DNA of 64,000 bases from an uncultured Acidobacteriaceae bacterium (GCA_963735915.1 CAVTMX010000030.1:187501-251500), one strand, 5' to 3'; numbered from the stretch's first letter, positions 1 to 54,256 are shown. Translations and numbers: made by a program. Notes: generated by a model from the sequence alone, not told the origin.

Positions 1-1193
1 CGACTTCAAGGTCGATCCGACGCCGACGGACAATCGGCTCTTCGATCTGCACGCCTTCGCCGAGTATGGCAAGGAGGGCGTGCTGGCGCTGTTTCAGGAT
101 TCGACCAACGTCGAGCGCCGCGGCTACACGCCGAGCGAACGCGCGGTGCGCGCGCGCTTCGAGGAGATTTTCGCGCGCGCCGAACGACGCTGTTCATCTC
201 CTGCTTCTCGTCGTCGATCCATCGCATCAAGCTGGCGATGGACCAGGCCTTCGAGAACGGGCGCAAGGTCGCGCTGGTCGGGCGCTCCATGATGGAGTCG
301 ACCGAGATCGCGCAGGACCTCGGCTACATCGACATTCCCGACGGGCTGCTCATCCATCCCGCGCAGATCAGCGAGCTGCCGCCCGACAAGGTCTGCGTGC
401 TCATCAGCGGCACGCAGGGCGAGCCCATGTCGGCGCTGTCGCGCGCCGCGGTCGACAATCACAAGCACGCGCGCATTCAGCCCGGCGACACGGTCGTGCT
501 CTCGTCGCGCATCATTCCCGGCAACGAGAAGGCGATCTATCGCGTCGATCGATCACCTCTTCCGCCGCGATGCGCACGTCATCTACGACGACGGCTCGTC
601 GCCGCCGGTGCACGTCAGCGGACACGCCAGCCAGGAAGAGCTGAAGCTCATCATCAACCTGGTGAAGCCGCAATACTTCATTCCCATTCACGGCGAGTAT
701 CGCCAGCTCAAGCTGCATGCCGAGCTGGCCGGCGCGATGCACGGCTCGGTCGGCAAGGTGATGATGATCGAGAGCGGCGACATTCTGGAGTTCGACGAGC
801 TGGGCGCGCGCAAGGCGGGCAAGGTCAGCGTCGGCCGCATCTGCATCGATTCGAACTCCATGGGCGATGTGGTGGAGGACCTGGTCATTCGCGACCGCCG
901 TCACCTGAGCGAAGACGGCATCGTGCTGCCGATCATCGCCATCAACAAGCTGACCGGCGAAGTCGAGAGCGCGCCGGAGATCGTGATGCGCGGCTTCGGC
1001 GCAGCATGGCCGAGAACGGCTTCCTCGACAGGCGCGCGCAGCACCGTGATGAGCACGCTGCGAAGCGTCCAGCGACGAAGAGAAGGGCGACTACGGCATG
1101 ATCAAGGAAAAGATCCGCCAGGACCTGAAGCGCTTCATCGTGAAGAACACTTCGCGCCGCCCGCTGATCATGCCGGTGATTCTGGAAGTGTGA
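1..1193 (+). pseudogene. rnj: Ribonuclease J (beta-CASP metallo-beta-lactamase RNase); 5' end cut by window edge; about 5 frameshifts as assembled
   Basis: Pieces in three frames join into one RNase J: FQDSTNVERRGYTPSERAV | FISCFSSSIHRIKLAMDQAFENGRKVALVGRSM...IIPGNEKAIYRV | IDHLFRRDAHVIYDDGSSPPVHVSGHASQEELKLIINLVKPQYFIPIHGEYRQL...EIVMRGFG | MAENGFLD | [11 protein letters not shown] | [39 protein letters not shown]; stop 1191-1193 (ORFs 80-292, 238-1101, 608-1531). Confidence 0.85.
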
Positions 1194-2438
1194 CCACGGT
1201 TCCCTGGCAAGGCCGCAGCCCGTCGCGCAAGGCGCGCCTGCTGGCCTGGCTTCCTGCTGCTGGTTCCGATTCTACTCGCCCTGCTCTATCCCATCGCGCA
1301 GGACTATCTGCGCGCGGCCTCGCTGCTGGAGCGCATCTCCGATCCGCACGCGACAGGCTGGATCGCCAACTACGATGTGCATCCGGTCGATGTACACGAC
1401 AGCACCTTCGACTTCCGCGGCCAGCACGATTCCGGCGCGCATTTATTTGCCGCGCGGCGTCGGCTTCGCGCCGGGCATCGTGGTGGTGCACGGCATGCAC
1501 GAGCTCGGCATCGACGAGCCGCGCCTGGTGAGCTTCGCGCGCTCACTGGCGGCGAGCGGCTTCTTCGTCATGACGCCGCTGGTCCCCGGCATCGCCGACT
1601 ATCGCGTTGAGGCCGAATCGGCCGACGTGATCGGTACTGCGGCGCAGAGCTTCGCGCAGCAACTCAACGTGCCGCAGCGTCGGAGTGCTGGCCATCAGTT
1701 TTTCCGGCGGCCTGGCGCTGCTGGCAGCCAGCGATCCGCAATATGCTGCGTCGTTCGCCTGGATCGCATCCGTCGGCGGATACTACGATCTCGCGCATGT
1801 GCTGCGCTTCTTCGCCACCGGCAGACGCTGTGCGGCCCGACGGCAAAGTCGAGCACCTCACGCCGCACGAATATGGCGCGCTGATCGTGATCGATGACGA
1901 GCCCGGCGATTTCTTCTCGCCGCACGATGCGCCGCTGGCACACGAAGCCTTCAAGCTGCTGCTCGCCGGCGATGGCAAGGAATCCGAGGCGCTCACACAG
2001 CGCATGACGCCAGCCGGGCAGCAGGTCATGCAGGACATCTACCACAAGCAGCGCGCCAGTCTTACGCCGGCGATTCTGGCCGAGATCGACAAGCAGCGGG
2101 ACAAGCTCGCAGCGGCCTCTCCCGCCGGCCATCTGCGATTCATTCGAGCGCCGGTGCTGCTGTTGCACGGCTCCGACGACACGCGTAATCCCGCCGACCG
2201 AGCTGTTGTGGCTGAAGCGCGACATTCCGCAAGATCATCTGGTCGAGGCGCTGGTCAGCCCGGCCATCACTCACGTCGAGGTCGGCGGCAAGCCCAGCTT
2301 CGCGACCGGCTCGCACTTGTACACTGGATGGAGGAGATGATTCAGGTGGCGCGCAGCACCACTCGTGGCGGCCCGCCGGAGAGTTTACCTGCGGGCGCGT
2401 GGATCGCGAAACAATCAACCTGGGTCTCGCCGTTCTAG
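1190..2438 (+). pseudogene. Membrane-anchored alpha/beta-fold hydrolase (dienelactone-hydrolase-like); at least 4 frameshifts as assembled
   Basis: GTG 1190 overlaps the rnj stop (GTGA). TM helix FLLLVPILLALLYPIA, then IYLPRGVGFAPGIVVVHGMHELG...FFVMTPLVPG | VLAISFSGGLALLAA (nucleophile-elbow-like SFSGG) | ...FIRAPVLLLHGSDDT | ...LALVHWMEEMIQVA. Pieces lie in ORFs 1375-1884, 1685-1897, 1743-2438. Confidence 0.55.
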
Positions 2439-3499: not shown

Positions 3500-4498
3500 A
3501 TGATCATGAGAGCTGCAGTTCTCATCACGTCAGCACCAATCACCCAACAACCACTGCGCATCGAAGACGTACCCAGGCCGGAGGTCATGCCCGGTCACGT
3601 TTTGCTGAAAGTCCGCGCCTGCGGGGTCTGTCGCACCGACTTGCACATCGTCGAAGGCGAACTGGCGCCCCGGCTGGAGCACGTAGTTCCTGGCCACCAG
3701 ATCGTGGGCGATGTAGTCGAGGGCGCCTCGGCCGAGTTGCCGAAGGGGACACGAGTGGGCGTCTCCTGGATCGGCGGCACCGACGGTACGTGTTGGTATT
3801 GCCGCCATGCGATGGAGAACCTCTGCGACGCACCCACCTTCACCGGCTACACCGTGAACGGGGGTTATGCGGAGTATGCGATCGCGCGCGCCGATTTTGT
3901 CTTTCCGCTGCCGGCAGCAGCTCGACGATCTTCACGCGGCGCCATTGTTGTGCGCGGGCATCATCGGCTTCCGTAGCTTGCGGGTGGCGGGCACGCAGCC
4001 CGGCGAGCGCGTCGGACTCTTCGGGTTTGGGGCCTCGGCGCACTTGGCAATCGAGGTACTGCATGCCTGGAAATGCGACGTTTACGTTTCCACGCGGGGC
4101 GAGTCGCATCGCAAGCTGGCGGAGTCTCTGGGGGCGAAGTGGGTGGGCGCGGAGACCGAAAGGCCCCCCGTGGGCCTCGATCGCGCCATCACGTTTGCAC
4201 CCAGCGGCGATGTCGTGGTTGCCGCGCTTTCGAGCTTGCGCAAGGGCGGAGTGGTCGCAATCAACGCAATACATCTGGACCACATGCCAGAGTTCGATTA
4301 CGACACGCTGTTGTGGGGCGAACGCCAGATTCGCAGTGTGGCCAACATGACGCGCGAGGATGCCCGAGACTTCCTTAACCTGGCCGCCAAGATCAACTTG
4401 CATCCGAAGGTGACGTCGTTCTCGCTGGATCAGGCGAATGAGGCGTTGCTCGCGGTGAAAGGGGATGCGATTGATGGGCAGCCGCCATTCTGCCGTGA
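3500..4498 (+). pseudogene. Zinc-dependent alcohol dehydrogenase family (MDR superfamily); 2 frameshifts as assembled
   Basis: GHVLLKVRACGVCRTDLHIVEG, VPGHQIVG, CWYCRHAMENLC (structural Zn cysteines), GLFGFGASAH (Rossmann). Adding one G at 4476-4478 restores the ending ...AIDGAAAILP with stop 4496-4498. ORFs 2858-3976 (C-terminal part) and 3867-4697. Confidence 0.8.
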
Positions 4499-14412: not shown

Positions 14413-16037
14413 TCAGCGCGTGGCTTCCGCCCTTGCCAGCACAATTGCCGTTCCTGACGACATGGCCTGATAGTAGCCGACGAAGCGCTGCGTCTCGTCA
14501 GTGTGATAAGGCGCCAGATTATGCGCCCAGCGGAACCCGATTGGCTGGTACCACAGCTCGGCCTCGATGTGAAACGGCCCCTGCGCACCGTCCAGCGCGA
14601 CAGAGTATTCGATACGGCTGCCCGCATCGGTGAACTTGGGATCATCGGCCGCCTCGCCCACCACGGCGATGTCGTGCTCGGCGGTTTGCTTGTTGAAGCC
14701 ATGGGGCAGTAGCCGATTGTCCTTGAGGTATCGCACCGCTTGCAGCAAGCCGGTGGTGACGTGCCCATTCGAGTCGCCGAGGATGGGCTCGTAAATCTCC
14801 ACCTGGTCGCTGCTGGTGATGCGACGGTAGTGCGGCTCGTAGCACGACGGATCGGCATCGTTGTCGTTGCCTACGATGGAGCCGTCAGTATTGAGCGCGC
14901 CGGACTCGAACACTGTCTTGCCATTGCGATCGCGCACGGCGACATGCAACCACACCCGGCGCGACGGAAAGGCGGTGGGCAGCTTGTGGCCGGTAAGGTT
15001 CTCGACGGCGACCTGGATGTCCAACCTGCCGGCGTCCGAGGTGATGCTCGGGATGGTCACGCGCGCAGATCCGGAGCGCAGAAAGTCAGAAGTGCGCTCG
15101 GCGGCGCTGGTCAACTCCTGCGGCAACGCCTTCACCGCAAGCTCGTCACGATAGCGGTTCAGCAGGCGCTGCATGAAGAAATTTCCGCCGCTGAAATAAT
15201 GCTCCGCCACGCCGAACCGATCGACCCCCAGCACAGCGGCAATTGGCGCAGGCCCGTGCACTTCAGGCATGTGGCACGACTGGCAACTCTGCTTGCCGGC
15301 ATAGTCGCTGTGCAGCCATTCCAGAAACGGCATCTGCTCGGGAAAGTGCCCAGGTCTTTGCCGCCCTCGCCGCGCGCGGTCGTATACAAAGTGTGACAAG
15401 TGCCGCACAGCGCCGAGTCGGTTACATGCAAGCCGTGCGTGGGCCGAAAGCCGCCGGTGGAGCTTTGCATTACCAGCGCTTGCCCTGGCTCGATCAGGTA
15501 CGGCCCAAATTCCGGATGATGGTCCTTGGACGCGGGCTGCTCCACCACGAAGCCGCCGGTGAAGCTCTCCTTGGCGCCCAGATTCTGACTGCTGATCTGA
15601 TGGCACACGGAGCAGGTCACGCCGTCCTCTGCCTGCGCGCTTTCGCGATCGCTATGCTGGCTAAACGGCAGGAAGGCGAACACCTCGCCCTCTTTGCCCC
15701 GCGCTTTCGCCTCGTAGCGCGTGATCGGCATGTGGCAAACGGAGCACTCGTCTTGCACCTGAGTGCTCACCTCAGAATGATCGAGGGTTTCGCGGCGAAC
15801 GCTGGCCTGCCAGTAGGGATCGCGCGATGAGTTTGCCATTATGCTCGCTCGCCATGCGTACCCGATGGAGACGTCCTTGCCGTCAGGCGTAGTGAGCCCG
15901 TTGTGGCAGGCGAGGCAACGGTCGGAAGTGTGGAAGGCCGGCTTGGGCGAGTTGTCGTCCGCGCCGCCGCGGGCGGGCTCGCGAAGCCACGGTACCAGCA
16001 GCAGAACCAATCCGAGATAGCAGAACTTTCTCATCAC
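14413..16037 (-). pseudogene. Secreted pentahaem c-type cytochrome with a ~270-aa haem-free C-terminal domain; 1 frameshift (~15338) as assembled
   Basis: Signal peptide MMRKFCYLGLVLLLVPW. Five CXXCH motifs: CLACH, CSVCH, CSVCH, CGTCH, CQSCH. ORFs 15159-16037 and 14413-15606 join at ...GKDLGTFP|EQMPFLEWL. Confidence 0.75.
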
Positions 16038-17224
16038 CAGCCGTGAAGCAGGCTCCCCTCCTGCCAGTCCCAGAGAACATAGAACAGCACCTGCGTCGAC
16101 CGGCCCTGCGTGTAGTTAACCGGCACGCGCACGCCCACGTTGCCGCGAACATGCTGACGCTTGCTGAGCGTCACCTGCATTTCGGGCAGCACGTCCCAAT
16201 CGGTGTGAGTGTGATTGACAAGATCGCGGTCGGCCAGAAACTCGCACATCGGCGAGAACAGGCGGCCAAGACCATTGCCTTGCGGAAACATCTGTCCCAC
16301 TGCGGTGTACCAGAAAACCGATTGCGGAGCCTTGCTGGTATCGGTCGGCAAGGTCGCGCCGGTCTGAAACTGGATGAACGTTCTGGTCGGGAACAGTTGG
16401 CCGAACTCGGCGAGCGGCTCGAACGCCGTGGTCCCGCTACCAAGTCCGTGGGTGCTGTTTCCTGTCGGGATGTTGATATTGCCCTGAAGACTAAAGATAG
16501 TGCCCGCGCCCCAACCTTCGTCGGAACTCAGGTGCGAGAACATGACATGCTTCACACCCATCGAAACATCGCCGACACCGCCATACCAGGTATGGTCGGG
16601 CTTCATGAACTCGATTGGCACGTCGACTTCAAGCTGGTTCTTCACGCCAAAGCGCTGTTCGTAGATGACGTGACTGGTGACGCCGCTGGGTCCCGTCGCA
16701 TTCACGCCGGAGGTCAGCACCACTTCGTCCTCGGGGTACGGCTTCTCGGTCACCAGTGCCAACGGAAGATTGAGCTCGCCGCGGGGCCAACGCTCTGTAG
16801 GACAGAAACCCCTGATATACCGTACGACCTCGTCGATCTGGTGCGGCGTCAGCGCCTCCTTGAACGAAGGCATGATCTGCGAGAAGCCGCGATAGGGGCC
16901 ACCATTGGTCACCACGGCCCGGTAGTCGTTGTTGAGTTCGGAGGTGGTCTGATCGCAGCGCGTGAAGTCGGGGAACGTGGACGGCTGCTTGAACCCGCGC
17001 TGTTCGGCGGGCACGCCCTTGCCCTCGGGCCCGTGGCAGGCAATGCAGGCAGTGTGGTAGATCTCTTTGCCGGTCGCTAAGTGCAGTGCGGTGCTATCCG
17101 GCGGCGCCGAGTGCGCCGCGGGGCTCAACAAAGCGCATCCTGCGACGGCGAGCACAGCCGCAAAAACGGAACCCAGGCTGCGATGGGTTTTGCTGCGAAT
17201 GCGGACTGGGGAACCGTGTGACAT
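16034..17224 (-). CDS. Class-I cytochrome c domain fused to a putative 12-strand outer-membrane beta-barrel (MetA/TodX-like)
   Basis: Signal peptide; GKEIYHTACIACHGPEG ... FSQIMPSF (CXXCH plus Met ligand). Then ~270 aa of alternating amphipathic strands ending ...LLHGW. The stop overlaps the start of the downstream pentahaem gene (GTGATG). Confidence 0.6.
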   Translation of the reverse strand: MSHGSPVRIRSKTHRSLGSVFAAVLAVAGCALLSPAAHSAPPDSTALHLATGKEIYHTACIACHGPEGKGVPAEQRGFKQPSTFPDFTRCDQTTSELNNDYRAVVTNGGPYRGFSQIMPSFKEALTPHQIDEVVRYIRGFCPTERWPRGELNLPLALVTEKPYPEDEVVLTSGVNATGPSGVTSHVIYEQRFGVKNQLEVDVPIEFMKPDHTWYGGVGDVSMGVKHVMFSHLSSDEGWGAGTIFSLQGNINIPTGNSTHGLGSGTTAFEPLAEFGQLFPTRTFIQFQTGATLPTDTSKAPQSVFWYTAVGQMFPQGNGLGRLFSPMCEFLADRDLVNHTHTDWDVLPEMQVTLSKRQHVRGNVGVRVPVNYTQGRSTQVLFYVLWDWQEGSLLHGW

Positions 17225-17424: not shown

Positions 17425-17859
17425 TCAGGCCCGCAGTTTTTTCAAATGCAATTCCGACCCTTTGCGGCGATAACTCACGTCATCCATCAAGCTTCGCATC
17501 AGGTGAATGCCACGGCCGTGCTGAGTGAGGTTAGTTCCGTCCTCACTCACGTCAGTCGCCTCCGCGGAATCGAAACCCGGTCCGGGGTCGCGAACGGTGA
17601 ATTCGATCGCCAATGGACTGATCTCAACCGTGCAATGCACAAGCTTGGCGGCATCGCCTTGGCAGCCGTGGAGGATGGCATTTGCCAAAGCCTCCTGCAA
17701 TGCAATCATGATATCGATCTCTTGCTGCTCGTCGGCACAGTAGCGGCGAACATATTCCATGATGGCATCGCGCGCAGGCGGCAGGGCGGCCAAACTGCCG
17801 GTGAGCACGAAATCGCGGGAGAGCGTCTGTTGCTCCACGGGTGGGCGCGTCTCCGGCAA
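17425..17859 (-). CDS. Anti-sigma-factor-type serine kinase (RsbW/SpoIIAB-like HATPase)
   Basis: N-box ALQEALANAILHG, G1 VRDPGPGF, G2 GRGIHLM. Confidence 0.75.
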   Translation of the reverse strand: MPETRPPVEQQTLSRDFVLTGSLAALPPARDAIMEYVRRYCADEQQEIDIMIALQEALANAILHGCQGDAAKLVHCTVEISPLAIEFTVRDPGPGFDSAEATDVSEDGTNLTQHGRGIHLMRSLMDDVSYRRKGSELHLKKLRA

Positions 17860-17869
17860 GGTTCCTCCG

Positions 17870-18229
17870 CTAGGCGGTCATCGTCTGCCATGCATCCGAG
17901 CCGCTGGTGTCGGGGGCGTCCAGCGGCAAGCCGGTGACGTGCAACACGCGATCCAGACTGGCCAGGGCGATCAGGCGACGCGCCGGCAACGATGGATTGG
18001 CGATGCTCAAGCTGGCGTACCGTTGCTGGGCCCAAACGTGCAACTCGACCAGTAGGCCGAGCCCTGCAGCGTCGATGGTATGCACTCGGCTCAGTTCCAG
18101 CAGGAGATGGCGCTCAGCCCGCGACTTGGCCGCGCAGCGCAACGTCTCCGCCTCCACTCCCAGCACAATTCGCCCGGAGCAAATCAGGGTCACGACCGGC
18201 GGCGCGCTCTGGATGTCGACTTTCAGCAT
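17870..18229 (-). CDS. STAS-domain anti-sigma-factor antagonist-like protein
   Basis: Fold pattern ...LLLELSRVHTIDAAGLGLLVEL... The canonical DSSGLG phospho-serine position reads DAAGLG. Lies 10 nt upstream of the kinase gene. Confidence 0.7.
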   Translation of the reverse strand: MLKVDIQSAPPVVTLICSGRIVLGVEAETLRCAAKSRAERHLLLELSRVHTIDAAGLGLLVELHVWAQQRYASLSIANPSLPARRLIALASLDRVLHVTGLPLDAPDTSGSDAWQTMTA

Positions 18230-18457
18230 GATGTTTCCCGAAGCTCCTAAGTTGAGTACGTGACGGCCGGCCCGGTGGTTTCAATTCCACCTGGCTTTTT
18301 AGCCAGTATGACGAAGTTGGATTGCAGAACGATGAATACGGGTGCAGAAAAGACGCAATGGGTATCGGAACATCAACGCTCAGATAGGAGCGAAGCCGGG
18401 CGGAGCAGCCCGGCTTGCGATCTCGTTTACTACTGAGACGTCGAAGACGCGTTCTAC

Positions 18458-19133
18458 TTAGCGCCGGTTTGCACGCCCGACCCCGCCTTGTGCGCCGTTC
18501 CAGCCCCTGCCGAATGTCCCGGCTCGGTGATCTTAATGTGCGTGATCTTCGGCGGATCGTAGGGCTTGTCATTGCGCGGATCGGCGACAAGCGGGCAATC
18601 TTCTTCACCACGTCAATGTCCTGGCACTGGCCAAAAATGCTGTAGTGGCTGTTCAGCGACTTCATCGGAACCTCGGTAATGAAGAACTGCGAGCCATTCG
18701 TATTCGGGCCGCTGTTGGCTATCGCCAGCTTCCCGGCTGCATTGAACGTCAGAGCGGAGCTGACCTCGTCCTTGATCTGGTAGCCGGGATCGCCGGTGCC
18801 GGTCCCCATCGGATCGCCGCCCTGAATCATGAAGTTCGGAATCACGCGATGAAAGATGGTGCCGTCGTACAGCGGCACGCCGTGCATCATCTTGCCGGTT
18901 TTGGGATCCTTCCAGTCCTTCGTGCCCGTCGCCAGGCCAATAAAGTTGGCCACTGACAGCGGGGCCTGGTTGGGAAACAACGTGCAGGTGATGTTGCCGG
19001 CCGTCGTCTCGATCACCGCCGTCGGCTCGGCTGTCTTCTGATTGCTCTTCTCGGTTGTTGAATGTTGCTGCGAAGTCGTCTGCGCCGTCGCAAGACTCGC
19101 CAGACAAAGAATTGCGATAAAGATTCGATTCAT
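18458..19133 (-). pseudogene. Secreted cyclophilin-type peptidyl-prolyl isomerase; 1 frameshift (~18590) as assembled
   Basis: MNRIFIAILCLASLATAQ..., FHRVIPNFMIQGGDP, SGPNTNGSQFFIT, ...DVVKKIAR | DPRNDKPYDPPKITHIKITEP...GAK with stop 18458-18460. Confidence 0.85.
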
Positions 19134-19249
19134 AATTCCTCCAAAGAACGTTGGTATAGTGGTTATGGACAGTGAATACTTCGAGGACCGGCGCTGCCCG
19201 AAACTAGGTAAGCCTACCGGGCAAGCCGAAGAACTGCTCAAAGTACTGA

Positions 19250-19322: not shown

Positions 19323-20593
19323 TCACAATCCCCCAGTCCACCAGCATTGCATTTCTGCATTTCTCCTCGACACCTTCTCCACTTCTCCAAACACTCTCAG
19401 CAGATTTCCGCCAAGAATCTTATCAAGATCGGCCGCCGAATAGCCGCGCTGGGAGAGCGCTTCCGTGATCTTCGGCAGATCGGCCGCCGAATCCAGCCCC
19501 TGCGGCGAGCAATCGATGCCATCGAAATCCGATCCCAGCCCCACATGATCCACGCCCGCAACCTTCACCATGTGGTCGATGTGATCGATCAGATCGCTGA
19601 ACGGCGGCCGCGGCAGCTTCGGCGCCAGCTTCGCCTTGGCCTCCGCCAACTGCTTCACGACCTCCGGCGTCTGCGGCTTGATGAACAGCGCCTGCACCGC
19701 CTCAGTAATCCGGATCGTGCTGCGCCGCCAGCTGCTTCGCCGTGTCCAGATACTTCTGCGAAACAAACGCGCAATAGTAATTCACCTGCGCCACGCCGTT
19801 CTTCGCGGCCAGCGCCTTCAGCATGTCGTCGGTCATATTGCGCGGCGCGTTGGTCAGCGCGCGCGACGACGAATGCGACGCAATCACCGGCGCCTTGCTC
19901 AACTCCAGCGCCTGGTAGAACGTCGAGTCGGCAACATGCGAGATGTCGACCATCATCCCCATCCGGTTCATCTCCGTCACCACTTCGCGGCCAAACGGGG
20001 TGAGCCCGCCGTGATGCTGAATGTTCTGGTCGGTCATGTCGCCGCTGGAGTCGCCAATGTCGTTGGTGTTCGACCACGTCAGCGTCATGTAGCGCACGCC
20101 CAGCCGGTAATAGTCGCGCAGGATGCGGATGTCGCCCTCGATCGCGTGCCCGCCCTCAACGCCCAGCAGCGCCGCCAGCTTGTGCTCGCGATGCGCAACG
20201 AGGATGTCGTGCGTGCCGAACGCCATCATCATCTTGTCGGGATGCCGCCGCGCCTGCTCGTACACCGAGTCGATCATGTCGAGCGCGCGCTTGGCTTCGT
20301 TGCCCTTGATTCGCCTTGGGCTCGACCCAGATGGAGAAGAACTCCGCGCCCAGATTGCCGGCCTTGATTTTGTTGAAGTCGAGATAGCCCGTGCCGGCGT
20401 CCTGCGCCAGATCGAAGTTCTCATCGACGAATCGCCCCGGCGTGTCGGCATGCGTGTCGATGATGATGGCGGAATTGTGGATCGCACGCCAGCCGTTATC
20501 GTTGTGCGCGCTCGCCGACGGCTTTCCCGTTTGCGCGAAGGCAACGCTCACACAGAGTAGGAGTAAGGGTGTAAGCCGAAATGAACTTGGCAT
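19323..20593 (-). pseudogene. Membrane dipeptidase (peptidase M19, renal dipeptidase family); 2 frameshifts as assembled
   Basis: Signal peptide; IIIDTHADTP, LLGVEGGHAIEGD, MMVDISHVAD, VIASHSSSRAL, HVGLGSDFDGI, spread over ORFs 20156-20593, 19702-20544 and 19323-19766. Confidence 0.85.
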
Positions 20594-48264: not shown

Positions 48265-50371
48265 CTAGTTGCTGGCCGCTTTCTTCATCGCTTCCTTCGC
48301 CGCGCTGACGACGTGGTCCACGGTGAAGCCGAAGTGCTCCATCACGACCTTCATGGGCGCGGACATGCCGAAGGTGCTCATGCCCAGCACGACGCCATTG
48401 CGTCCGGCATAGCGCTCCCACCCGATCGGCGACGCTTCTTCAACCGTCACGCGCGCGCCCACCGATGGCGGCAGCACGCTGTCGCGATAGGCCTGGTCCT
48501 GTGCGTCGAACAGCGCCCATGCCGGCATGCTGACCACGCGCGTCTTCACGCCTTCGGCCGTCAGCTTGTTCCCATGCCTTGACAGCAAAGACCGACTTCG
48601 CTGCCGCAGCCGATCAGGATCACGTCCGGCTTGCCGTCTGGCGCATCGGCCAGAACGTAGGCGCCCTTTGCCGACCGCTGGCCGCGGCAAACTTCGTGCG
48701 ATCGTAGATCGGCAGTGCCTGCCGGCTGCAGACGATCGCGCAACGGATGATCCTTCGACGACATCGCCACGCGATACGCTTCCACCAACTCGTTGGCGTC
48801 GGCAGGTCGGATGACGATCATGCCCGGCACGGCGCGCAGCGAGACCAACTGCTCGATGGGCTGATGCGTCGGCCCATCCTCACCCAGGCTGATGGTGTCG
48901 TGCGTCCAGATGTGCAGCGCTGGGATGTCCATCAGCGACGAGAGCCGGATGGCGCCGCGCGCGTAATCGGTGAAGATCAGGAAGCCGGAGCCGAAGGCGC
49001 GCAAGCCGGTGAGCACCATGCCGTTGACGATGGCGCACATGGCGTGCTCGCGAATACCGAAGTGGAAGTTGCGGCCTTTGTAGTTGCCGAGCTGGTGTCG
49101 CCTGGAAGTCGCCGGCGAACTCGAACTCCAGCCGCGTCTTGGTGCTGGGATACAGATCGGCGGCGCCGCCCAGCAGCCACGGAATCTTCTGCGCGAGTGC
49201 GTTCAGCACCTTGCCCGAAGCATCGCGCGTCGACATGCCTCTCTCGCTCGTCGGGAAGCTGGGCAGCGCCTTCTCCCAACCCGCAGGCAGATCGCGTTTG
49301 TTCATGCGCTCGATGTTGGTCGGCCAGGTCGGGATACTGCGCCTTGTAACGGGCGAACATCTCGTCCCACTCCTTCCGCAGCTTCGCGCCGCGCGCGCCC
49401 ATGCCTTTGGCGAAGTGCTCGCGCACCTCCGGCGGCACCACGAACGACTCGTCGGGCGAGAAGCCGAAGAACTCTTTCGTCAGCCGCACTTCTTCCGGCC
49501 CGAGCGGCTCGCCGTGCGCGGCCGAGGTGTCCTGCTTGTGCGGCGCGCCGTAGCCAATGTGGCTGTGCACCACGATCAGCGTGGGACGATCTTTCGGCGT
49601 CATGGAAGTGCTTCAGCGCGCGCTCGACCTGCTCGATATCGTTGGGGTCGCTGACGCGGTGCACCTCCCAGCCATATGCCAGGAAGCGCGACGCTACGTC
49701 CTCGGTGAACGAAATGTCGGTGTGGCCCTCGATGGTCACGCGGTTGGAGTCGTAGATCCAGCAAAGGTTCGACAGCTTCAGGTGCGCGGCCAGCGACGCC
49801 GCTTCGCTGACGAGACGCCTTCCTTCAGGCAGCCATCGCCGCACAGCGCATACGCGTTGAAGTTGAACAGGTCGAAACCTGGACGGTTGTAGGTTGCTGC
49901 CAGCCACTTGCTTGAAATCGCCATGCCGACGCTGGTCGCAAGCCCCTGACCCAGCGGTCCGGTTGTCGCTTCCACTCCGGTGGTCCAGCCGTACTCCGGA
50001 TGTCCCGGGCAGCGGCTCCCTTCCTGGCGAAACGCCTTCAGGTCGTCGACCGTCACCGCCTCGCGATCGGCGCCCTTGTAGCTGGCGTTCGCGGCCTTGA
50101 TTCCGGCGCAGTGAATCAGCGCATACAGCAGCATGGAAGCGTGTCCCGCCGAAAGCACGAAGCGATCGCGATTGGGCCACCACGGATTTTGCGGATCGTA
50201 ACGCAGCGCCTTCTGCCACACGGTATAGGCGGTAGGTGCGGCCCCCATCGGCGTGCCTGGGTGGCCGGAATTGGCCTTTTGCACGCCATCGATCGCTAAC
50301 GTGCGAATAGTGTTGACTGCCAGCTGGTCCAACGCGCTGGTTGACGCTTCGCGTGCCTGTTGCGGAATCAT
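48265..50371 (-). pseudogene. tkt: Transketolase; at least 6 frameshifts as assembled
   Basis: ...ANSGHPGTPMGAAP..., GDGCLKEGVS|EAASLAAHLKLSNLCWIYDSNRVTIEG, ...PTLIVVHSHIGYGAP..., ...HFGIREHAMCAIVNG..., THDTISLGEDGPTHQPIEQ, ...VVSMPAWALFD..., spread over ORFs 49778-50371, 49302-50219, 48977-49603, 48880-49305, 48561-49040 and 48265-48690. Confidence 0.9.
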
Positions 50372-50457
50372 AGAACCATCCTCGGTTTAATTCTTGCTTG
50401 CTTTCGGAGAGATTCGGTTGCGGTGAAACTTAAAAGCCTAACGTTGAAGTGCGGGGA

Positions 50458-51792: not shown

Positions 51793-52599
51793 CTAAAACC
51801 CCATCAGGTTCGGCGTGATCTTCTTGTATCCGTGTTCGCTTGCCCACAGGTCCAGAGGCACTGTGGCCACTTCATCCACCAGCGGTACAGCCAGTCCGTC
51901 AACCGTCATGTCGATCGACTTCAAATAGAAGTGGCAGGTGTCGCACGCCTCAACGCGCACGGCGTCGAGCTCCTCGGCACTGTAGCGCGGCAGATGGCGA
52001 TGGTTCTCCTCGCCGCAAGCGGGACAAAGAATTCGCCGGAACTCCCACTCCGTCAGACACAGCGAGCACAGCAGAAAGCGCTTTCCGCCGTCGCCTTCAG
52101 GGCGCAGCACCGCGGCCTGCGGGCGGCTCTCGCACAGCGGACAAACTCTCTTATCGCCCGTGTACGGCGGCACGGGCGACGAGGCGGCAACCCGCTCGGC
52201 ATAAGGCTGTAAGAGCACGCGAGCGAAGAAAACGTGCTCGGAGGGCCCGCCGGCGACAAAGCTTTCGAGCATTGCAACGTTTAGTTCCGCAGATTCGCCG
52301 CGAATCGTATGCGCGTCCTCGGCCAGCTTTGCCGTGCCCCGCTCTTCGACAAGCGACAGCAATGCGGGCAGATGCCGGGCAGCATCGACGGCGTCGAGGC
52401 GGTCGCATAGCCGGCCTTCGCTGCTCGCGGGCGCCGCGGAAATTCCCTCGAAGATTCTCTGTTGCAGCTTCAGCACCTCGCCGTAGAAGGCGAGAATCTC
52501 CCGCGCGTATGCGAATCGGTCAGCCAGCGTGGCTGCTCGCTGCACGCGCTTCTCCCACTCCGATTTCCTCATTGTCGAAGCTTGCTCAGCGTAGGGCAT
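51793..52599 (-). CDS. fdhE: FdhE-family protein (formate dehydrogenase accessory, rubredoxin-like CxxC clusters)
   Basis: CPLCESRP...[22 protein letters not shown]...[15 protein letters not shown]...[12 protein letters not shown]. Confidence 0.75.
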
Positions 52600-54256
52600 T
52601 GTTCACAATCTGCTGTGCCTCGGCGACAATCGCTTCCAGATGCGACTCGTCCTTGAAGCTCTCAGCGTAGATTTTATAGATGTTCTCGGTCCCCGAGGGC
52701 CGAGCGGCAAACCAACCGGTGGCGGCGACGACCTTCAGCCCGCCGATCGGGGCATCGTTGCCGGGCGCGCGCGTGAGCTTGGCAACGATGGGTTCACCGG
52801 TTAGTTCGCGCTCCTTCACCGCGTCGGGCGAGAGCTTGCCCAACTTCAACTTCTGCTCCGGCGTGGCGGGCGCATCGATGCGCGTGTAATACGGCATCCC
52901 GAATTCATTGGCCAGCGCGCGGAAGTGCTCGCCCGGATCTTTTCCGGTGCGCGCGGTTATCTCCGCCGCGAGCAGGTCCATGAGGATGCCGTCTTTGTCA
53001 GTAGTCCAAACCGTGGCATCGCGGCGCAGGAAACTCGCGCCGGCGCTCTCCTCGCCGCCGAAGCAACACGTGCCGTCGAACAGCCCGGGGGCAAACCACT
53101 TGAAGCCGACCGGCACCTCCCACAATGTATGACCAAGCTTTTTCACTACCCGATCGATCATGCTGCTACTGACGAGCGTCTTGCCGACGACCGCCTTCTG
53201 CGGCCAGCGCTCGCGATGCTGGAGCAGATACTGAATCGCAACCGCCAAGTAATGGTTCGGGTTCAGCAGCCCAGCCGAAGGAGTCACGATGCCGTGCCGG
53301 TCGGAGTCCGTATCATTGCCGAAGGCGACCTGGTACTTGTCCTTTAACTTCACCAAGCTGGCCATCGCATACCGGCTGGAGCAGTCCATGCGAATCTTGC
53401 CGTCATGGTCAACCGTCATGAACGAGAAGGTCGGATCGACTTTCTGGTTGACGATGTCGAGGTCCAGACCGTAAGCGGCCCTGATCGGCTCCCAGTACGG
53501 CAGCGACGCGCCACCCAGCGGATCGACCGCCAGCTTCAGCCCCGCCGCTCGAACTGCATCCAGGTCGATGACGTTGCTGAGATCGTCCACATACGGCGCA
53601 ATGAAATCGTGGGCGTGTGTGCTGCCAGCCTTGAGCGCAGCGTCACGCAAGACCCGTTTCACTCCGGCATTGTTTGCGCGCAGCAGTTCGTTGGCGCGGC
53701 CTTGGATCCAGCCGGTAACGTCGGTATCGGCCGGCCCGCCGTTGGTCGGGTTGTACTTGAAGCCGCCATCCTCCGGCGGGTTGTGCGAAGGCGTAATCAC
53801 AATTCCGTCAGCCAGGTGCTGCTTGCGCCCGCGGTTATAAGTCAGGATGGCGTGGGAGACGACCGGCGTCGGGGTGTAGCCGTCGTCCCGCTGAAGGAAC
53901 GTCTCAACCCCGTTGGCGGCCAGCACCTCGAGCGCGGTGATCTGCGCAGGCCCGGAAAGCGCGTGCGTGTCCTTGCCCATGTACAGCGGGCCGTCAACAC
54001 CCCGGTCGCGGCGATACTCGCAGATGGCCTGCGTGATCGCGAGGATGTGCGCTTCGGTGAACGTGCCGCGCAGCGACGATCCGCGATGCCCGCTGGTGCC
54101 GAAGGCGACCAGTTGGTTCGGGTCGCTCACGTCCGGACGAGTGTCGTAATACGCCTGCTCCAGTTGGGCAACGTCAACCAGCATCTCTTTCGGCGCGGGC
54201 TTGCCGGCGAGCGGCGACACCTGTTCCTGGGATTTGACCTCGGTGGCCATCGGCAC
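52586..54256 (-). CDS. pgm: Phosphoglucomutase (alpha-D-glucose phosphate-specific)
   Basis: [10 protein letters not shown] (phosphoserine loop), GNDTDSDRH (metal site), GGEESAG. Confidence 0.9.

What the first reader, a model, noticed from the sequence alone, without database searches (positions are those of the whole stretch)
14413..17224. Cytochrome c fused to an outer-membrane-type beta-barrel, translationally coupled to a secreted pentahaem cytochrome
Gene 16034-17224(-) has a signal peptide and one complete class-I cytochrome c domain (GKEIYHTACIACHGPEG ... FSQIMPSF, that is CXXCH plus a distal Met). This is fused to ~270 aa containing about 12 alternating amphipathic strands and ending in the aromatic ...LLHGW, which looks like a MetA/TodX-type outer-membrane barrel. 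Its TGA overlaps the GTG/ATG (GTGATG) of gene 14413-16037(-). That downstream gene encodes a secreted protein with five CXXCH motifs (CLACH, CSVCH, CSVCH, CGTCH, CQSCH) followed by ~270 haem-free residues. The known ways to move electrons across an outer membrane are fused monohaem cytochrome-porins (Cyc2 Fe(II) oxidases of Acidithiobacillus and Zetaproteobacteria) and porin plus multihaem complexes (MtrAB, Pcc). This pair combines both layouts. The cytochrome module here is a full class-I domain, not the short Cyc2 N-terminus, so I claim architectural analogy only, not homology. I know of no characterised acidobacterial example.
Basis: partly seen in the sequence, partly recalled or inferred. 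Interest (0 to 1): 0.65.

Follow-up and report, generated by a model that had tools for sequence, protein, structure and literature searches.

The report
Outer-membrane-anchored cytochrome with swappable redox partner
A soil acidobacterium carries a conserved two-gene unit, a cytochrome c fused to a small outer-membrane barrel plus a five-haem partner, whose function is untested; the partner gene looks broken in this sequence, almost certainly through a sequencing error.

Summary
Gene 1 (16034-17224, minus strand) is as described. It has a signal peptide, a class-I His/Met cytochrome c domain, an invariant linker and a predicted 12-strand outer-membrane barrel distantly related to COG4313/PF13557.

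"Gene 2" is not one ORF. One C is missing at 15348, so the fifth haem motif and the C-terminal domain lie in another frame. Transketolase, RNase J and a dipeptidase are also frameshifted. Restoring the C gives the 540-codon gene seen in all relatives. I read this as assembly error.

Gene 2 is homologous to the T. tepidum penta-haem c552 (five-haem cap plus Ig-like stem). It lacks the catalytic Cys and Sec of the related Geobacter polysulfide reductase MccSep/ExtKL.

The two genes are adjacent in 80 of 80 testable loci, mostly Terriglobia. In Gemmatimonadota the same cytochrome-barrel is coupled to a blue-copper protein instead. This suggests the partner is an electron carrier.

The protein is not Cyc2: it has 12 strands, not 16, and no PXFAR motif. 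The barrel is too narrow for an Mtr-type haem wire. The likeliest mechanism follows Cyc2 logic, with a haem at the periplasmic mouth of a narrow channel. That mechanism is inferred, not shown.

The parts
16034..17224 (-). Gene 1: 396-aa fusion of cytochrome c and an outer-membrane barrel (intact ORF)
   Evidence: ORF list and translation. More than 3000 full-length homologue clusters. dN/dS 0.059 against L001.
17108..17224 (-). Gene 1 Sec signal peptide (aa 1-39, likely cleaved after AHS). Cys30 sits in a lipobox-like LAVAGC, but this is not conserved.
   Evidence: N-termini of 35 homologues all have a hydrophobic segment followed by an A-x-S/A-Q-type site. The Cys is variable. The cleavage site was read by eye; no predictor was run.
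16811..17077 (-). Class-I cytochrome c domain (aa 50-138). CIACH lies at 17033-17047 and the distal-Met motif IMPSF at 16862-16876. Cys90 and Cys141 are also invariant and may form a disulfide.
   Evidence: Pfam PF13442 (37.2 bits) and PF00034 (37.1 bits), both above their cut-offs. PDB profile hits to CcoP, QcrC and c6. Invariant columns C60, C63, H64, M118, C90 and C141.
16727..16810 (-). Invariant linker GFCxxxxWPRGELNLPxALVTEKxYPED (aa 139-166), immediately before strand 1. Candidate lumen plug.
   Evidence: It is the most conserved segment of the protein (mean 0.85). In COG4313 and FapF the segment before strand 1 occludes the lumen (PMC4493636; PMC5557850). The AlphaFold2 model is low-confidence here, so the plug role is inferred.
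16064..16726 (-). Predicted 12-strand outer-membrane beta-barrel (aa 167-387), a distant COG4313/PF13557 relative
   Evidence: AlphaFold2 strands with block-mean pLDDT mostly 60-89. Foldseek hits: FapF E 1.3e-6, KdgM TM-score 0.71, NanC 0.60, COG4313 structure 4rl8 0.54. PF13557 hit in 3 of 10 family members. Alternating hydrophobicity, with lumen-facing residues more conserved than lipid-facing ones, 0.83 against 0.75.
16034..16063 (-). C-terminal tail QEGSLLHGW plus the TGA stop; the terminal Trp is invariant
   Evidence: WDWQxGxLxxGW is conserved in 35 of 35 homologues.
16032..16037 (-). GTGATG junction. The gene 1 stop TGA (16036-16034) shares its A with the gene 2 start ATG (16034-16032), which indicates translational coupling.
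   Evidence: Sequence. Homologues start MRK..., which corresponds to the ATG. The closest relatives have the same overlap.
15348..16034 (-). Gene 2, part A (frame A): signal peptide and haem motifs 1-4 (CLACH, CSVCH, CSVCH, CGTCH)
   Evidence: dN/dS 0.128.
15347..15349 (-). Frameshift site: one C is missing next to 15348 (GGGC here, GGGCC in the relative)
   Evidence: It is the single indel in the 2813-nt alignment with L001. Restoring it gives a 1623-nt ORF identical in length to the relative's gene.
14413..15348 (-). Gene 2, part B (frame B): haem motif 5 (CQSCH, 15271-15285) and the Ig-like beta-sandwich domain (about 14413-15081)
   Evidence: AlphaFold2 predicts a beta-sandwich, and Foldseek matches 5ze8 at E 4.7e-8. 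dN/dS 0.112.
14956..15000 (-). Invariant Ig-domain loop NLTGHKLPTA[F/Y]PSRR. It is the counterpart of the MccSep active-site loop HSIPDGUPTPNR, with Phe or Tyr where MccSep has selenocysteine.
   Evidence: Column counts. HMMER alignment to 5ze8. MccSep peptide and structure (PMC13510729). I aligned the MccSep peptide by eye.

Best explanation
This is a conserved, self-contained two-gene operon.

Gene 1 encodes a Sec-exported protein. Its C-terminal 12-strand COG4313-like barrel sits in the outer membrane. Its N-terminal class-I (His/Met) monohaem cytochrome c domain must stay on the periplasmic side, held at the barrel mouth by an invariant linker that probably plugs or gates the narrow lumen.

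Gene 2 is translationally coupled to gene 1. It encodes a soluble periplasmic pentahaem cytochrome of the c552/PHC fold (five-haem cap plus Ig-like stem). It lacks the catalytic Cys and Sec of MccSep, so it most likely acts as an electron carrier.

The two proteins form an outer-membrane-anchored electron-transfer station. The partner shuttles electrons between the respiratory chain and the tethered haem. The tethered haem exchanges them with a small diffusible redox species that enters the channel. That is the logic proposed for Cyc2. It is not a haem wire through the membrane as in Mtr or Pcc.

The single-base frameshift in gene 2 in this window is a sequencing or assembly error.

Shown: gene structure, domain families, the frameshift, gene pairing and partner swapping. 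Predicted by modelling: barrel fold and strand number. Inferred: topology, plug, complex formation, the existence of a channel-borne substrate, and the direction of electron flow.
For: Architecture:
- Pfam cytochrome c domain.
- AlphaFold2 12-strand barrel whose significant fold matches are all outer-membrane barrels.
- Family-level PF13557 hits.
- Invariant terminal Trp and conserved signal peptides.

Periplasmic haem domain: even-stranded outer-membrane barrels have both termini in the periplasm, and c-type haem is attached in the periplasm. This is established knowledge, and the same reasoning was applied to Cyc2 in PMC8406198.

Pairing:
- 80 of 80 testable loci have gene 2 directly downstream, often overlapping.
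- No third conserved gene.
- The pairing also holds in divergent lineages.

Partner as electron carrier:
- Gene 2 matches only the penta-haem c552 structure 5ze8.
- It has five conserved non-motif His (H87, H174, H204, H243, H280) for five haems.
- It has no conserved extra Cys, and Phe or Tyr at the Sec position.
- In Gemmatimonadota, full-length gene 1 homologues (36-39% identity) are coupled in 5 of 5 independent loci, plus one short duplicate contig, to a cupredoxin-Ig protein. That protein has an invariant type-1 copper ligand set H/C/H/M in 30 of 30 sequences.
- A tethered monohaem served by a soluble shuttle needs a third redox partner at the outer membrane.

Channel function: the linker is the most conserved segment and lumen-facing residues are more conserved than lipid-facing ones. 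That is more than a passive anchor would need.

Frameshift as artefact:
- Transketolase is split over at least 4 frames, RNase J over 2 and an M19 dipeptidase over 3.
- dN/dS is equal on both sides of the break.
- Frame-split copies of gene 2 occur in 5 of 39 long-read 'MFD' MAG loci and in 0 of 41 others, p = 0.024.
Against: - There is no experimental datum for any member of the family. No substrate is known and no informative neighbouring gene exists.
- The AlphaFold2 models are only moderately confident (mean pLDDT 61.7 and 52.0). The linker and both haem domains are poorly modelled, so neither the plug nor the interface between the two proteins has been seen.
- COG4313 channels are linked to uptake of hydrophobic molecules, not to redox chemistry.
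- Bis-His multihaem proteins such as c552 are usually low-potential, while His/Met class-I haems and blue copper proteins are usually high-potential. The two alternative partners therefore do not obviously fit one direction of electron flow.
- A 12-strand barrel with a plug may be closed to hydrated ions.
- The window copy of the barrel itself does not reach any Pfam barrel family.
Confidence: 0.45

Rival explanations
1. Anchor-only model. The barrel merely tethers the cytochrome c domain to the inner face of the outer membrane, as a lipid anchor does for Geobacter OmcF. The pair is a periplasmic relay that serves some unlinked outer-membrane or periplasmic process. Nothing passes through the barrel.
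For: The barrel is small and probably plugged. Both alternative partners are soluble periplasmic carriers. No substrate-related gene is linked.
Against: A 230-residue barrel kept at about 76% column identity is an expensive and over-constrained anchor. Its preceding linker is the most conserved segment, and its lumen-facing residues are more conserved than its lipid-facing ones. No barrel-less or lipoprotein version of the family was found among 790 representatives; the apparent barrel-only hits are truncated gene calls.
Confidence: 0.2
2. Import-plus-enzyme model (Ext/MccSep-like). The barrel imports a substrate, for example a hydrophobic or sulfur species. The pentahaem-Ig protein is the catalyst, and the fused cytochrome c only feeds it electrons.
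For: Gene 2 shares its fold family with MccSep, a periplasmic polysulfide reductase encoded next to the outer-membrane barrel ExtI (PMC13510729; PMC6148476). The Ig-domain loop that forms the MccSep active site is invariant in gene 2. COG4313 channels take up hydrophobic molecules.
Against: The two residues that define MccSep catalysis are absent: there is no conserved non-motif Cys, and Sec is replaced by Phe or Tyr. The histidine count fits five bis-His haems. In Gemmatimonadota the partner is replaced by a type-1 copper protein, which is a pure electron carrier.
Confidence: 0.15
3. Mtr/Pcc-like conduit. The pentahaem cytochrome inserts into the barrel and forms a continuous haem chain across the outer membrane.
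For: Gene order (barrel gene next to a multihaem gene) and a weak Pfam hit to MtrC/MtrF domain II/IV (30.8 bits against a cut-off of 30).
Against: The barrel has 12 strands and a lumen of about 10-12 Angstrom even when unplugged. Characterised conduit porins are much larger; ExtI, for example, has 21 strands. No extracellular cytochrome is linked. The one localised relative of gene 2, MccSep, is periplasmic and soluble.
Confidence: 0.03
4. Secretion-pore model (FapF- or autotransporter-like). The barrel exports the co-encoded partner to the cell surface.
For: The best fold match is FapF, a 12-strand plugged secretion pore with a periplasmic N-terminal domain, encoded in an operon with its substrates (PMC5557850). 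The COG4313 fold resembles autotransporter barrels.
Against: FapF substrates cross unfolded. A polypeptide carrying five covalently bound haems is unlikely to thread a pore of about 1 nm (inference). There is no fap-like protease or chaperone gene nearby. MccSep is periplasmic.
Confidence: 0.05
5. The frameshift is real: in this organism gene 2 is a recent pseudogene and the module is inactive.
For: The sequence as given has the deletion. No reads are available to check it.
Against: Essential genes in the same window are frameshifted several times (transketolase, RNase J). There are no further lesions, and dN/dS is equal on both sides of the break. Similar breaks at other positions occur only in long-read MAGs.
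Confidence: 0.1

Closest known systems
Cyc2 fused cytochrome-porin (Acidithiobacillus, Zetaproteobacteria; PMC8406198)
   Same: Signal peptide, a single CXXCH cytochrome at the N-terminus and an outer-membrane beta-barrel at the C-terminus, all in one polypeptide. The haem domain is expected at the periplasmic mouth, with the substrate entering the pore. The protein hands electrons to a soluble periplasmic carrier. In A. ferrooxidans that carrier is the blue-copper protein rusticyanin (my own knowledge of the rus operon), which parallels the cupredoxin partner found here in Gemmatimonadota.
   Different: There is no sequence homology. The PXFAR[QK][TY] motif is absent in 0 of 35 family members. 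The barrel has 12 strands of COG4313 type, not 16 strands of porin type. The cytochrome is a full class-I domain of about 90 residues with a Met ligand, not the short Cyc2 module. The partner gene is obligately and translationally coupled.
T. tepidum low-potential penta-haem cytochrome c552 (PDB 5ze8)
   Same: It is the only significant solved-structure match to gene 2, by sequence profile (E 3.5e-4) and by fold (E 4.7e-8). Both have five CXXCH motifs plus an Ig-like domain and share the loop motif N-L-x-x-H-x-x-P-T-x-x-P-x-R.
   Different: Identity is about 17%. The function of c552 is unknown. Gene 2 is about 100 residues longer. Whether c552 has a barrel partner was not examined.
Geobacter MccSep (= ExtKL) and the extHIJKL cluster (PMC13510729, PMC6148476)
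   Same: A pentahaem cap plus Ig-like stem, exported to the periplasm and encoded beside an outer-membrane barrel gene (ExtI). There is a partial NCBIfam ExtKL hit (E 2.6e-7). The active-site loop is alignable.
   Different: The haem-2 distal Cys and the Sec/Cys that define the enzyme are both missing. ExtI is a separate 21-strand protein with no haem. Rhodanese (ExtH) and ExtJ are absent.
COG4313 / PF13557 channels (Pput2725, PDB 4rl8) and the FapF barrel (PDB 5o65)
   Same: A 12-strand barrel with short loops, preceded by a segment that occludes the lumen. FapF also carries a periplasmic N-terminal domain. Fold matches have TM-scores of 0.5-0.6, and PF13557 is hit by 3 of 10 family members.
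   Different: Neither has a redox cofactor. The known roles are uptake of hydrophobic molecules (COG4313) and amyloid subunit secretion (FapF). The window copy itself is below the Pfam detection limit.
MtrCAB / Pcc porin-cytochrome conduits
   Same: A barrel gene lies next to a multihaem cytochrome gene.
   Different: The barrel is far too small to enclose a cytochrome. There are 6 haems in total, against 20 or more. There is no surface cytochrome.

Membership tests
Cyc2 fused cytochrome-porin | Signal peptide followed by a single CXXCH, N-terminal to a barrel | tested here: met
   One CIACH at aa 60-64 after a conserved signal peptide, with the barrel C-terminal to it.
Cyc2 fused cytochrome-porin | AXPXFAR[Q/K][T/Y] motif 5 aa upstream of the CXXCH (PMC8406198) | tested here: not met
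   A regular-expression search for P.FAR[QK][TY] found it in 0 of 35 family members. The local sequence is LATGKEIYHTACIACH.
Cyc2 fused cytochrome-porin | 16-stranded porin-type barrel | tested here: not met
   AlphaFold2 gives 12 strands. The best-superposing fold matches are 12-strand barrels.
Cyc2 fused cytochrome-porin | Outer-membrane location and Fe(II) oxidation activity | not testable with these tools
   This needs cell fractionation, haem staining and enzyme assays.
COG4313 / PF13557 (Phenol_MetA_deg) outer-membrane channels | Match to the Pfam model | tested here: inconclusive
   The window copy has no hit at E <= 10. Three of 10 barrel-only homologues hit, best E 2.9e-5.
COG4313 / PF13557 (Phenol_MetA_deg) outer-membrane channels | 12-stranded barrel | tested here: met
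   AlphaFold2 secondary structure. Foldseek match to 4rl8, TM-score 0.54 on the target. This rests on a model, not a solved structure.
COG4313 / PF13557 (Phenol_MetA_deg) outer-membrane channels | Segment preceding strand 1 folded into the lumen | tested here: inconclusive
   The 28-residue linker is invariant, but its pLDDT is below 50 in the model.
Class-I cytochrome c (PF00034 / PF13442) | CXXCH plus a distal Met in a domain of about 90 residues that scores above the Pfam cut-offs | tested here: met
   37.2 bits (cut-off 27) and 37.1 bits (cut-off 21.3). C60, C63, H64 and M118 are invariant.
c552 / PHC pentahaem-Ig fold (5ze8, MccSep, cable-bacteria PHC) | Five CXXCH motifs in an N-terminal cap plus a C-terminal Ig-like beta-sandwich | tested here: met
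   Five positionally invariant motifs in 36 of 36 sequences. A beta-sandwich is predicted for aa ~320-541. 5ze8 is the only significant match, by sequence and by fold.
MccSep polysulfide reductase family | Conserved Sec or Cys in the Ig-domain loop (U325) | tested here: not met
   The equivalent position 357 is Phe in 22 and Tyr in 14 of 36 sequences. I aligned the published MccSep peptide by eye.
MccSep polysulfide reductase family | His/Cys-ligated haem 2 (distal C239) | tested here: not met
   No Cys outside the CXXCH motifs is conserved in 36 sequences. H243 lies at about the equivalent position; that placement is an inference from the NCBIfam coordinates.
Mtr / Pcc porin-cytochrome conduits | A large porin that encloses a periplasmic multihaem cytochrome, plus a surface cytochrome | tested here: not met
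   The barrel has 12 strands. No third conserved gene exists.

The most novel reading that the evidence does not exclude
This is a second family of fused cytochrome-barrel outer-membrane oxidoreductases, evolutionarily independent of Cyc2. It is built on a COG4313-type barrel and has an interchangeable periplasmic partner: pentahaem in Terriglobia, blue copper in Gemmatimonadota. Through it, two abundant and mostly uncultured soil phyla would exchange electrons with diffusible extracellular redox species such as Fe(II)/Fe(III) chelates, Mn, or humic and quinone compounds. Haem-count-based surveys of extracellular electron transfer would have missed it, because the pair carries only six haems.
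Probability: 0.3. Interest if true: 0.85.

Novelty: new variant of a known kind. Interest (0 to 1): 0.62.

Why it matters
Only one family of fused cytochrome-barrel proteins, Cyc2, has been characterised. It is the main genetic marker for neutrophilic iron oxidation.

The architecture described here is unrelated in sequence. It is strictly conserved, under strong purifying selection, and present in about 490 species-level genomes, mostly Terriglobia, a dominant soil and peat group. A copper-partnered version occurs in Gemmatimonadota.

Published screens for extracellular electron transfer select clusters rich in haems. One uses a default threshold of at least 15 haems per cluster (PMC11475568). 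The peat study reports systems with 8-13-haem cytochromes (bioRxiv 10.64898/2026.05.27.727921). Such screens would not flag this six-haem pair.

If the module exchanges electrons with extracellular or channel-borne substrates, it would add an unrecognised route to soil iron, manganese or organic-matter redox cycling. It would also supply a new marker gene. A cultured carrier exists (Acidobacteriaceae bacterium KBS 96, locus L043), so the question can be tested directly.

For annotation, the frameshift shows that gene calls in this assembly cannot be taken at face value.

Tried and rejected
- Programmed -1 frameshift. A formal X_XXY_YYZ heptamer (T_TTC_CCG, 15345-15339) lies just downstream of the break. 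However, the relatives are simply in frame with one extra C a few bases upstream. Rejected.
- Lipoprotein anchor for gene 1 (LAVAG|C). The Cys is not conserved. Rejected as a family feature.
- Barrel-only relatives. The ~275-aa hits all start at MPAFG, the internal Met-ligand motif, so they are truncated gene calls. The 560-735-aa hits are frameshifted read-throughs into gene 2.
- A conserved third gene. Clustering ORFs from 82 loci found only antisense shadow ORFs and local synteny in at most 11 loci.
- Promoter and terminator scans gave counts no higher than in shuffled sequence.
- Homology between the Ig-like domains of the two alternative partners. hhalign gave a probability of 0.2%, so no shared docking domain was detected. 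The cupredoxin partner is also unrelated to gene 2 overall.
- The acidobacterial EET1/EET2 clusters of the 2026 peat preprint use 8-13-haem cytochromes and do not mention this pair.
- No paper in the held library links PF13557 with cytochrome c.
- The T. tepidum c552 paper itself is not held.
- NCBIfam has no specific model for either protein; every hit is far below its cut-off.
- The gap in gene 2 of L069 is a run of N, not a deletion.


Full report
**1. Checking the observation**

It has CIACH at residues 60-64, IMPSF at residues 117-121 and the C-terminus ...LLHGW. Its TGA stop shares a base with the ATG of the next gene, inside the string GTGATG.

The second "gene", 14413-16037, is not one reading frame. 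It is 1625 nt long, which is not a multiple of three.
- One frame (15159-16037) encodes a signal peptide and four CXXCH motifs, then runs into a stop.
- Another frame (14413-15606) encodes the fifth motif, CQSCH, and the roughly 285 haem-free residues that follow it.

I aligned the whole 2.8-kb pair with a relative that is 87% identical in DNA (L001). The alignment has a single indel. The window reads CTGGG-CAC where the relative reads CTGGGCCAC, so one C is missing next to position 15348. Putting it back gives a 1623-nt ORF, exactly the length of the relative's gene. dN/dS against that relative is 0.13 upstream of the break and 0.11 downstream, and 0.06 for gene 1.

**2. Is the frameshift real?**

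Almost certainly not. Other genes in the same window are also split across frames, and the pieces match consecutive parts of their Pfam profiles:
- An M19 dipeptidase is split over three frames (profile positions 2-67, 64-250 and 242-318).
- Transketolase is split over at least four frames.
- RNase J is split over two frames.

GC3 frame tracking suggests at least ten such switches in the 64 kb.

Among related loci, gene 2 is frame-split at various positions in 5 of 39 loci from long-read "MFD" MAGs. It is split in none of 41 other loci (Fisher p = 0.024).

A slippery-looking heptamer lies just downstream of the break, but it is a coincidence, because the relatives are simply in frame.

**3. 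What gene 1 is**

- **Cytochrome domain.** Pfam finds only a class-I cytochrome c domain at residues 50-138 (PF13442 and PF00034, both above their cut-offs). The haem Cys and His and the distal Met are invariant. Two further Cys, C90 and C141, are also invariant and may form a disulfide.
- **Barrel.** AlphaFold2 run on a 35-sequence alignment gives twelve long strands between residues 167 and 387, with block-mean pLDDT mostly between 60 and 89. All 36 Foldseek matches with E <= 0.001 are outer-membrane barrels, as is every other row of the 50 listed.
- **Best fold matches.** The matches that superpose best are 12-strand barrels: FapF (E 1.3e-6), KdgM (TM-score 0.71), NanC (0.60) and the COG4313 channel 4rl8 (0.54).
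- **Sequence link to PF13557.** The window copy does not hit any Pfam barrel model. Three of ten barrel-only homologues hit PF13557, best E 2.9e-5.
- **Conservation pattern.** The strands alternate hydrophobic and polar residues. Lumen-facing positions are more conserved than lipid-facing ones (0.83 against 0.75). The 28-residue linker before strand 1 is the most conserved segment of the protein, at 0.85.
- **Possible plug.** In both COG4313 and FapF the segment before strand 1 sits inside the lumen, and an unplugged COG4313 lumen is only about 10-12 Angstrom wide (PMC4493636; PMC5557850).
- **Export signals.** The signal peptide is conserved, the lipobox-like Cys is not, and the terminal Trp is invariant.

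**4. What gene 2 is**

All homologues are single proteins of about 540 aa with five positionally invariant CXXCH motifs.

The only solved structure that matches is the penta-haem cytochrome c552 of Thermochromatium tepidum, PDB 5ze8. It matches by sequence profile (E 3.5e-4, on the motif NLxxHxxPTxxPxR) and by fold (Foldseek E 4.7e-8).

A published analysis groups c552 with Geobacter ExtKL and Gsu2801 and with cable-bacterial pentahaem cytochromes (PMC11976967).

ExtKL has recently been characterised under the name MccSep. It is a periplasmic, tetrameric polysulfide reductase with a five-haem cap and an Ig-like stem. Its haem 2 is His/Cys-ligated (C239), and a selenocysteine (U325) reaches in from the Ig-domain loop HSIPDGUPTPNR (PMC13510729).

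Gene 2 keeps that loop as its most invariant motif, NLTGHKLPTA[F/Y]PSRR, but has Phe or Tyr at the Sec position. No Cys outside the haem motifs is conserved. Five non-motif His are conserved in the haem domain, which is the number needed for five bis-His haems.

Gene 2 is therefore a member of the fold family but not of the enzyme family. It is most simply read as an electron carrier.

**5. Distribution and linkage**

- A scan of one genome per species found 491 genomes with a gene 1 relative. The 80 best are almost all Terriglobia (Acidobacteriaceae, Bryobacteraceae, Acidoferrales, Sulfotelmatobacter) and include one isolate, strain KBS 96.
- Gene 2 lies directly downstream in 80 of 80 testable loci, overlapping gene 1 in the closest relatives.
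- No other gene is conserved around the pair. The window's own neighbours are unrelated housekeeping genes.
- A profile search with the barrel alone against 1.8 billion representative proteins found only 790 proteins. The apparent barrel-only hits start at the internal Met-ligand motif, so they are truncated gene calls. The long hits are frameshifted read-throughs into gene 2. The fusion therefore appears universal within the family.

**6. An alternative partner**

In the most divergent branch, full-length gene 1 homologues share 36-39% identity with gene 1 across both the cytochrome and the barrel. Here the downstream gene is not a pentahaem cytochrome.
- **Linkage.** In 5 of 5 independent loci examined (L082, L088-L091; the short contig L083 repeats L082), a Sec-exported protein of about 250 aa follows. 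It overlaps the upstream gene by 11 nt in three of these loci.
- **Family and taxonomy.** The family has about 110 clusters. Source names place it in Gemmatimonadota (Candidatus Palauibacter, Gemmatimonadales, Longimicrobiales), and JGI repeatedly names it "plastocyanin".
- **Copper site.** A 30-sequence alignment shows an invariant type-1 copper ligand set...NSDATLH(143)NV... and C181-x2-H184-x2-M187. These ligands align with the cupredoxin domain of a copper nitrite reductase, PDB 9cck, though only weakly (E 0.023). The Pfam Cupredoxin_1 hit is also weak (E 0.15).
- **Second domain.** A CarboxypepD_reg-type beta-sandwich follows the cupredoxin.
- **Unrelated partners.** The two partners are not detectably homologous to each other.
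- **Mixed phylum.** Other lineages, including a Longimicrobiales MAG, keep the pentahaem partner.

This is a replacement of one soluble redox protein by an unrelated one. It suggests that the partner's job is electron carriage and that the constant functional core is the barrel-tethered haem. It also parallels the Cyc2-rusticyanin pairing of Acidithiobacillus ferrooxidans. That parallel rests on my own knowledge of the rus operon and was not tested here.

**7. How it most likely works**

*Shown:* the gene structures, the domain families, the strict pairing and the partner swap.

*Predicted by modelling:* the 12-strand barrel fold.

*From established knowledge:* an even-stranded outer-membrane barrel has both termini in the periplasm, and c-type haem is attached there. 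The cytochrome domain is therefore periplasmic. A 12-strand lumen can hold neither that domain nor a multihaem protein.

*Inferred:* a monohaem fixed at the outer membrane and served by a soluble shuttle needs a third redox partner at that membrane. The most economical candidate is a small solute that enters the narrow, probably gated channel. This is the logic proposed for Cyc2, where the haem domain sits at the periplasmic mouth and Fe2+ must enter the pore (PMC8406198).

The direction of electron flow cannot be decided from sequence. The His/Met haem and the copper partner suggest a high-potential chain. The bis-His pentahaem partner suggests a lower potential.

I put about 0.85 on the architecture and topology and about 0.4 on the channel-coupled mechanism. 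The rival explanations are an anchor-only role, an import-plus-enzyme system, an Mtr-like conduit, a FapF-like secretion pore and a genuine pseudogene.

**8. Comparison with known systems and novelty**

- **Cyc2.** The protein is not Cyc2. The diagnostic PXFAR[QK][TY] motif is absent from all 35 family members. The barrel has 12 strands, not 16. The cytochrome is a full class-I domain.
- **Mtr/Pcc conduits.** It is not a conduit of this type.
- **Literature.** Searches of the held library found no description of a cytochrome fused to a COG4313/PF13557 barrel, and none of this pair in Acidobacteriota.
- **Verdict.** I rate it a new variant of a known kind, the fused cytochrome-barrel outer-membrane protein. 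It has an unusual and informative feature, an interchangeable haem or copper partner.

Noticed in passing
window 48268-50429 (-), 1-1528 (+), 19326-20593 (-), 18117-19241 (-): Housekeeping genes are broken by frameshifts. Transketolase is split over at least 4 frames, RNase J over 2 and an M19 dipeptidase over 3. A cyclophilin PPIase ORF runs on for about 150 residues past the end of its Pfam match and overlaps the next gene. GC3 tracking suggests further breaks at 5.3-6.3 kb (HlyD-like) and 36.2-38.2 kb. The assembly is indel-rich, so every ORF call in this window needs checking.
   Followed up: partly
L082 6154-6906; L088-L091 (about 3501-4260): A family of about 110 clusters of ~250-aa Sec-exported proteins combines a cupredoxin, with an invariant type-1 copper H/C/H/M ligand set, and a CarboxypepD_reg beta-sandwich. 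In Gemmatimonadota it is always found directly downstream of a cytochrome-barrel gene. NCBI often names these proteins 'TonB-dependent receptor' or 'carboxypeptidase regulatory-like domain-containing protein'.
   Followed up: yes
window 17425-18229 (-): A partner-switching pair lies directly upstream of gene 1: a STAS anti-anti-sigma protein (17870-18229) and an RsbW-like HATPase_c_2 kinase (17425-17859). It is not conserved next to the cytochrome pair in relatives, so it probably does not regulate it.
   Followed up: partly
window 16802-16810 and 16955-16957 (gene 1 Cys141 and Cys90): Two Cys outside the haem motif are invariant in 35 of 35 homologues. One lies in the cytochrome domain (FTRCDQTT) and one at the start of the linker (GFC). 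They could form a disulfide that staples the haem domain to the linker.
   Followed up: no
L031, L047, L054, L060, L062, L087: In other long-read MAG assemblies, the homologues of gene 2 are also split across frames, each at a different position. This is the same artefact class as in the window.
   Followed up: partly
L025, L078 (Dormibacterota bins), L052 (Verrucomicrobiia bin): A few MAGs assigned to other phyla carry pairs that are 56-58% identical to the window's gene 1, no more distant than many Terriglobia copies. This could be mis-binning or horizontal transfer.
   Followed up: no
window 51796-52602 (-): An FdhE-like protein (formate dehydrogenase accessory protein). Its CXXCH is part of the Cys-rich FdhE motifs, not a haem site. 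I did not check whether formate dehydrogenase genes lie nearby.
   Followed up: no
window 15339-15345 (-): T_TTC_CCG formally fits the X_XXY_YYZ pattern of a -1 slippery site, just downstream of the frameshift. It is a coincidence, because relatives read straight through in frame.
   Followed up: yes
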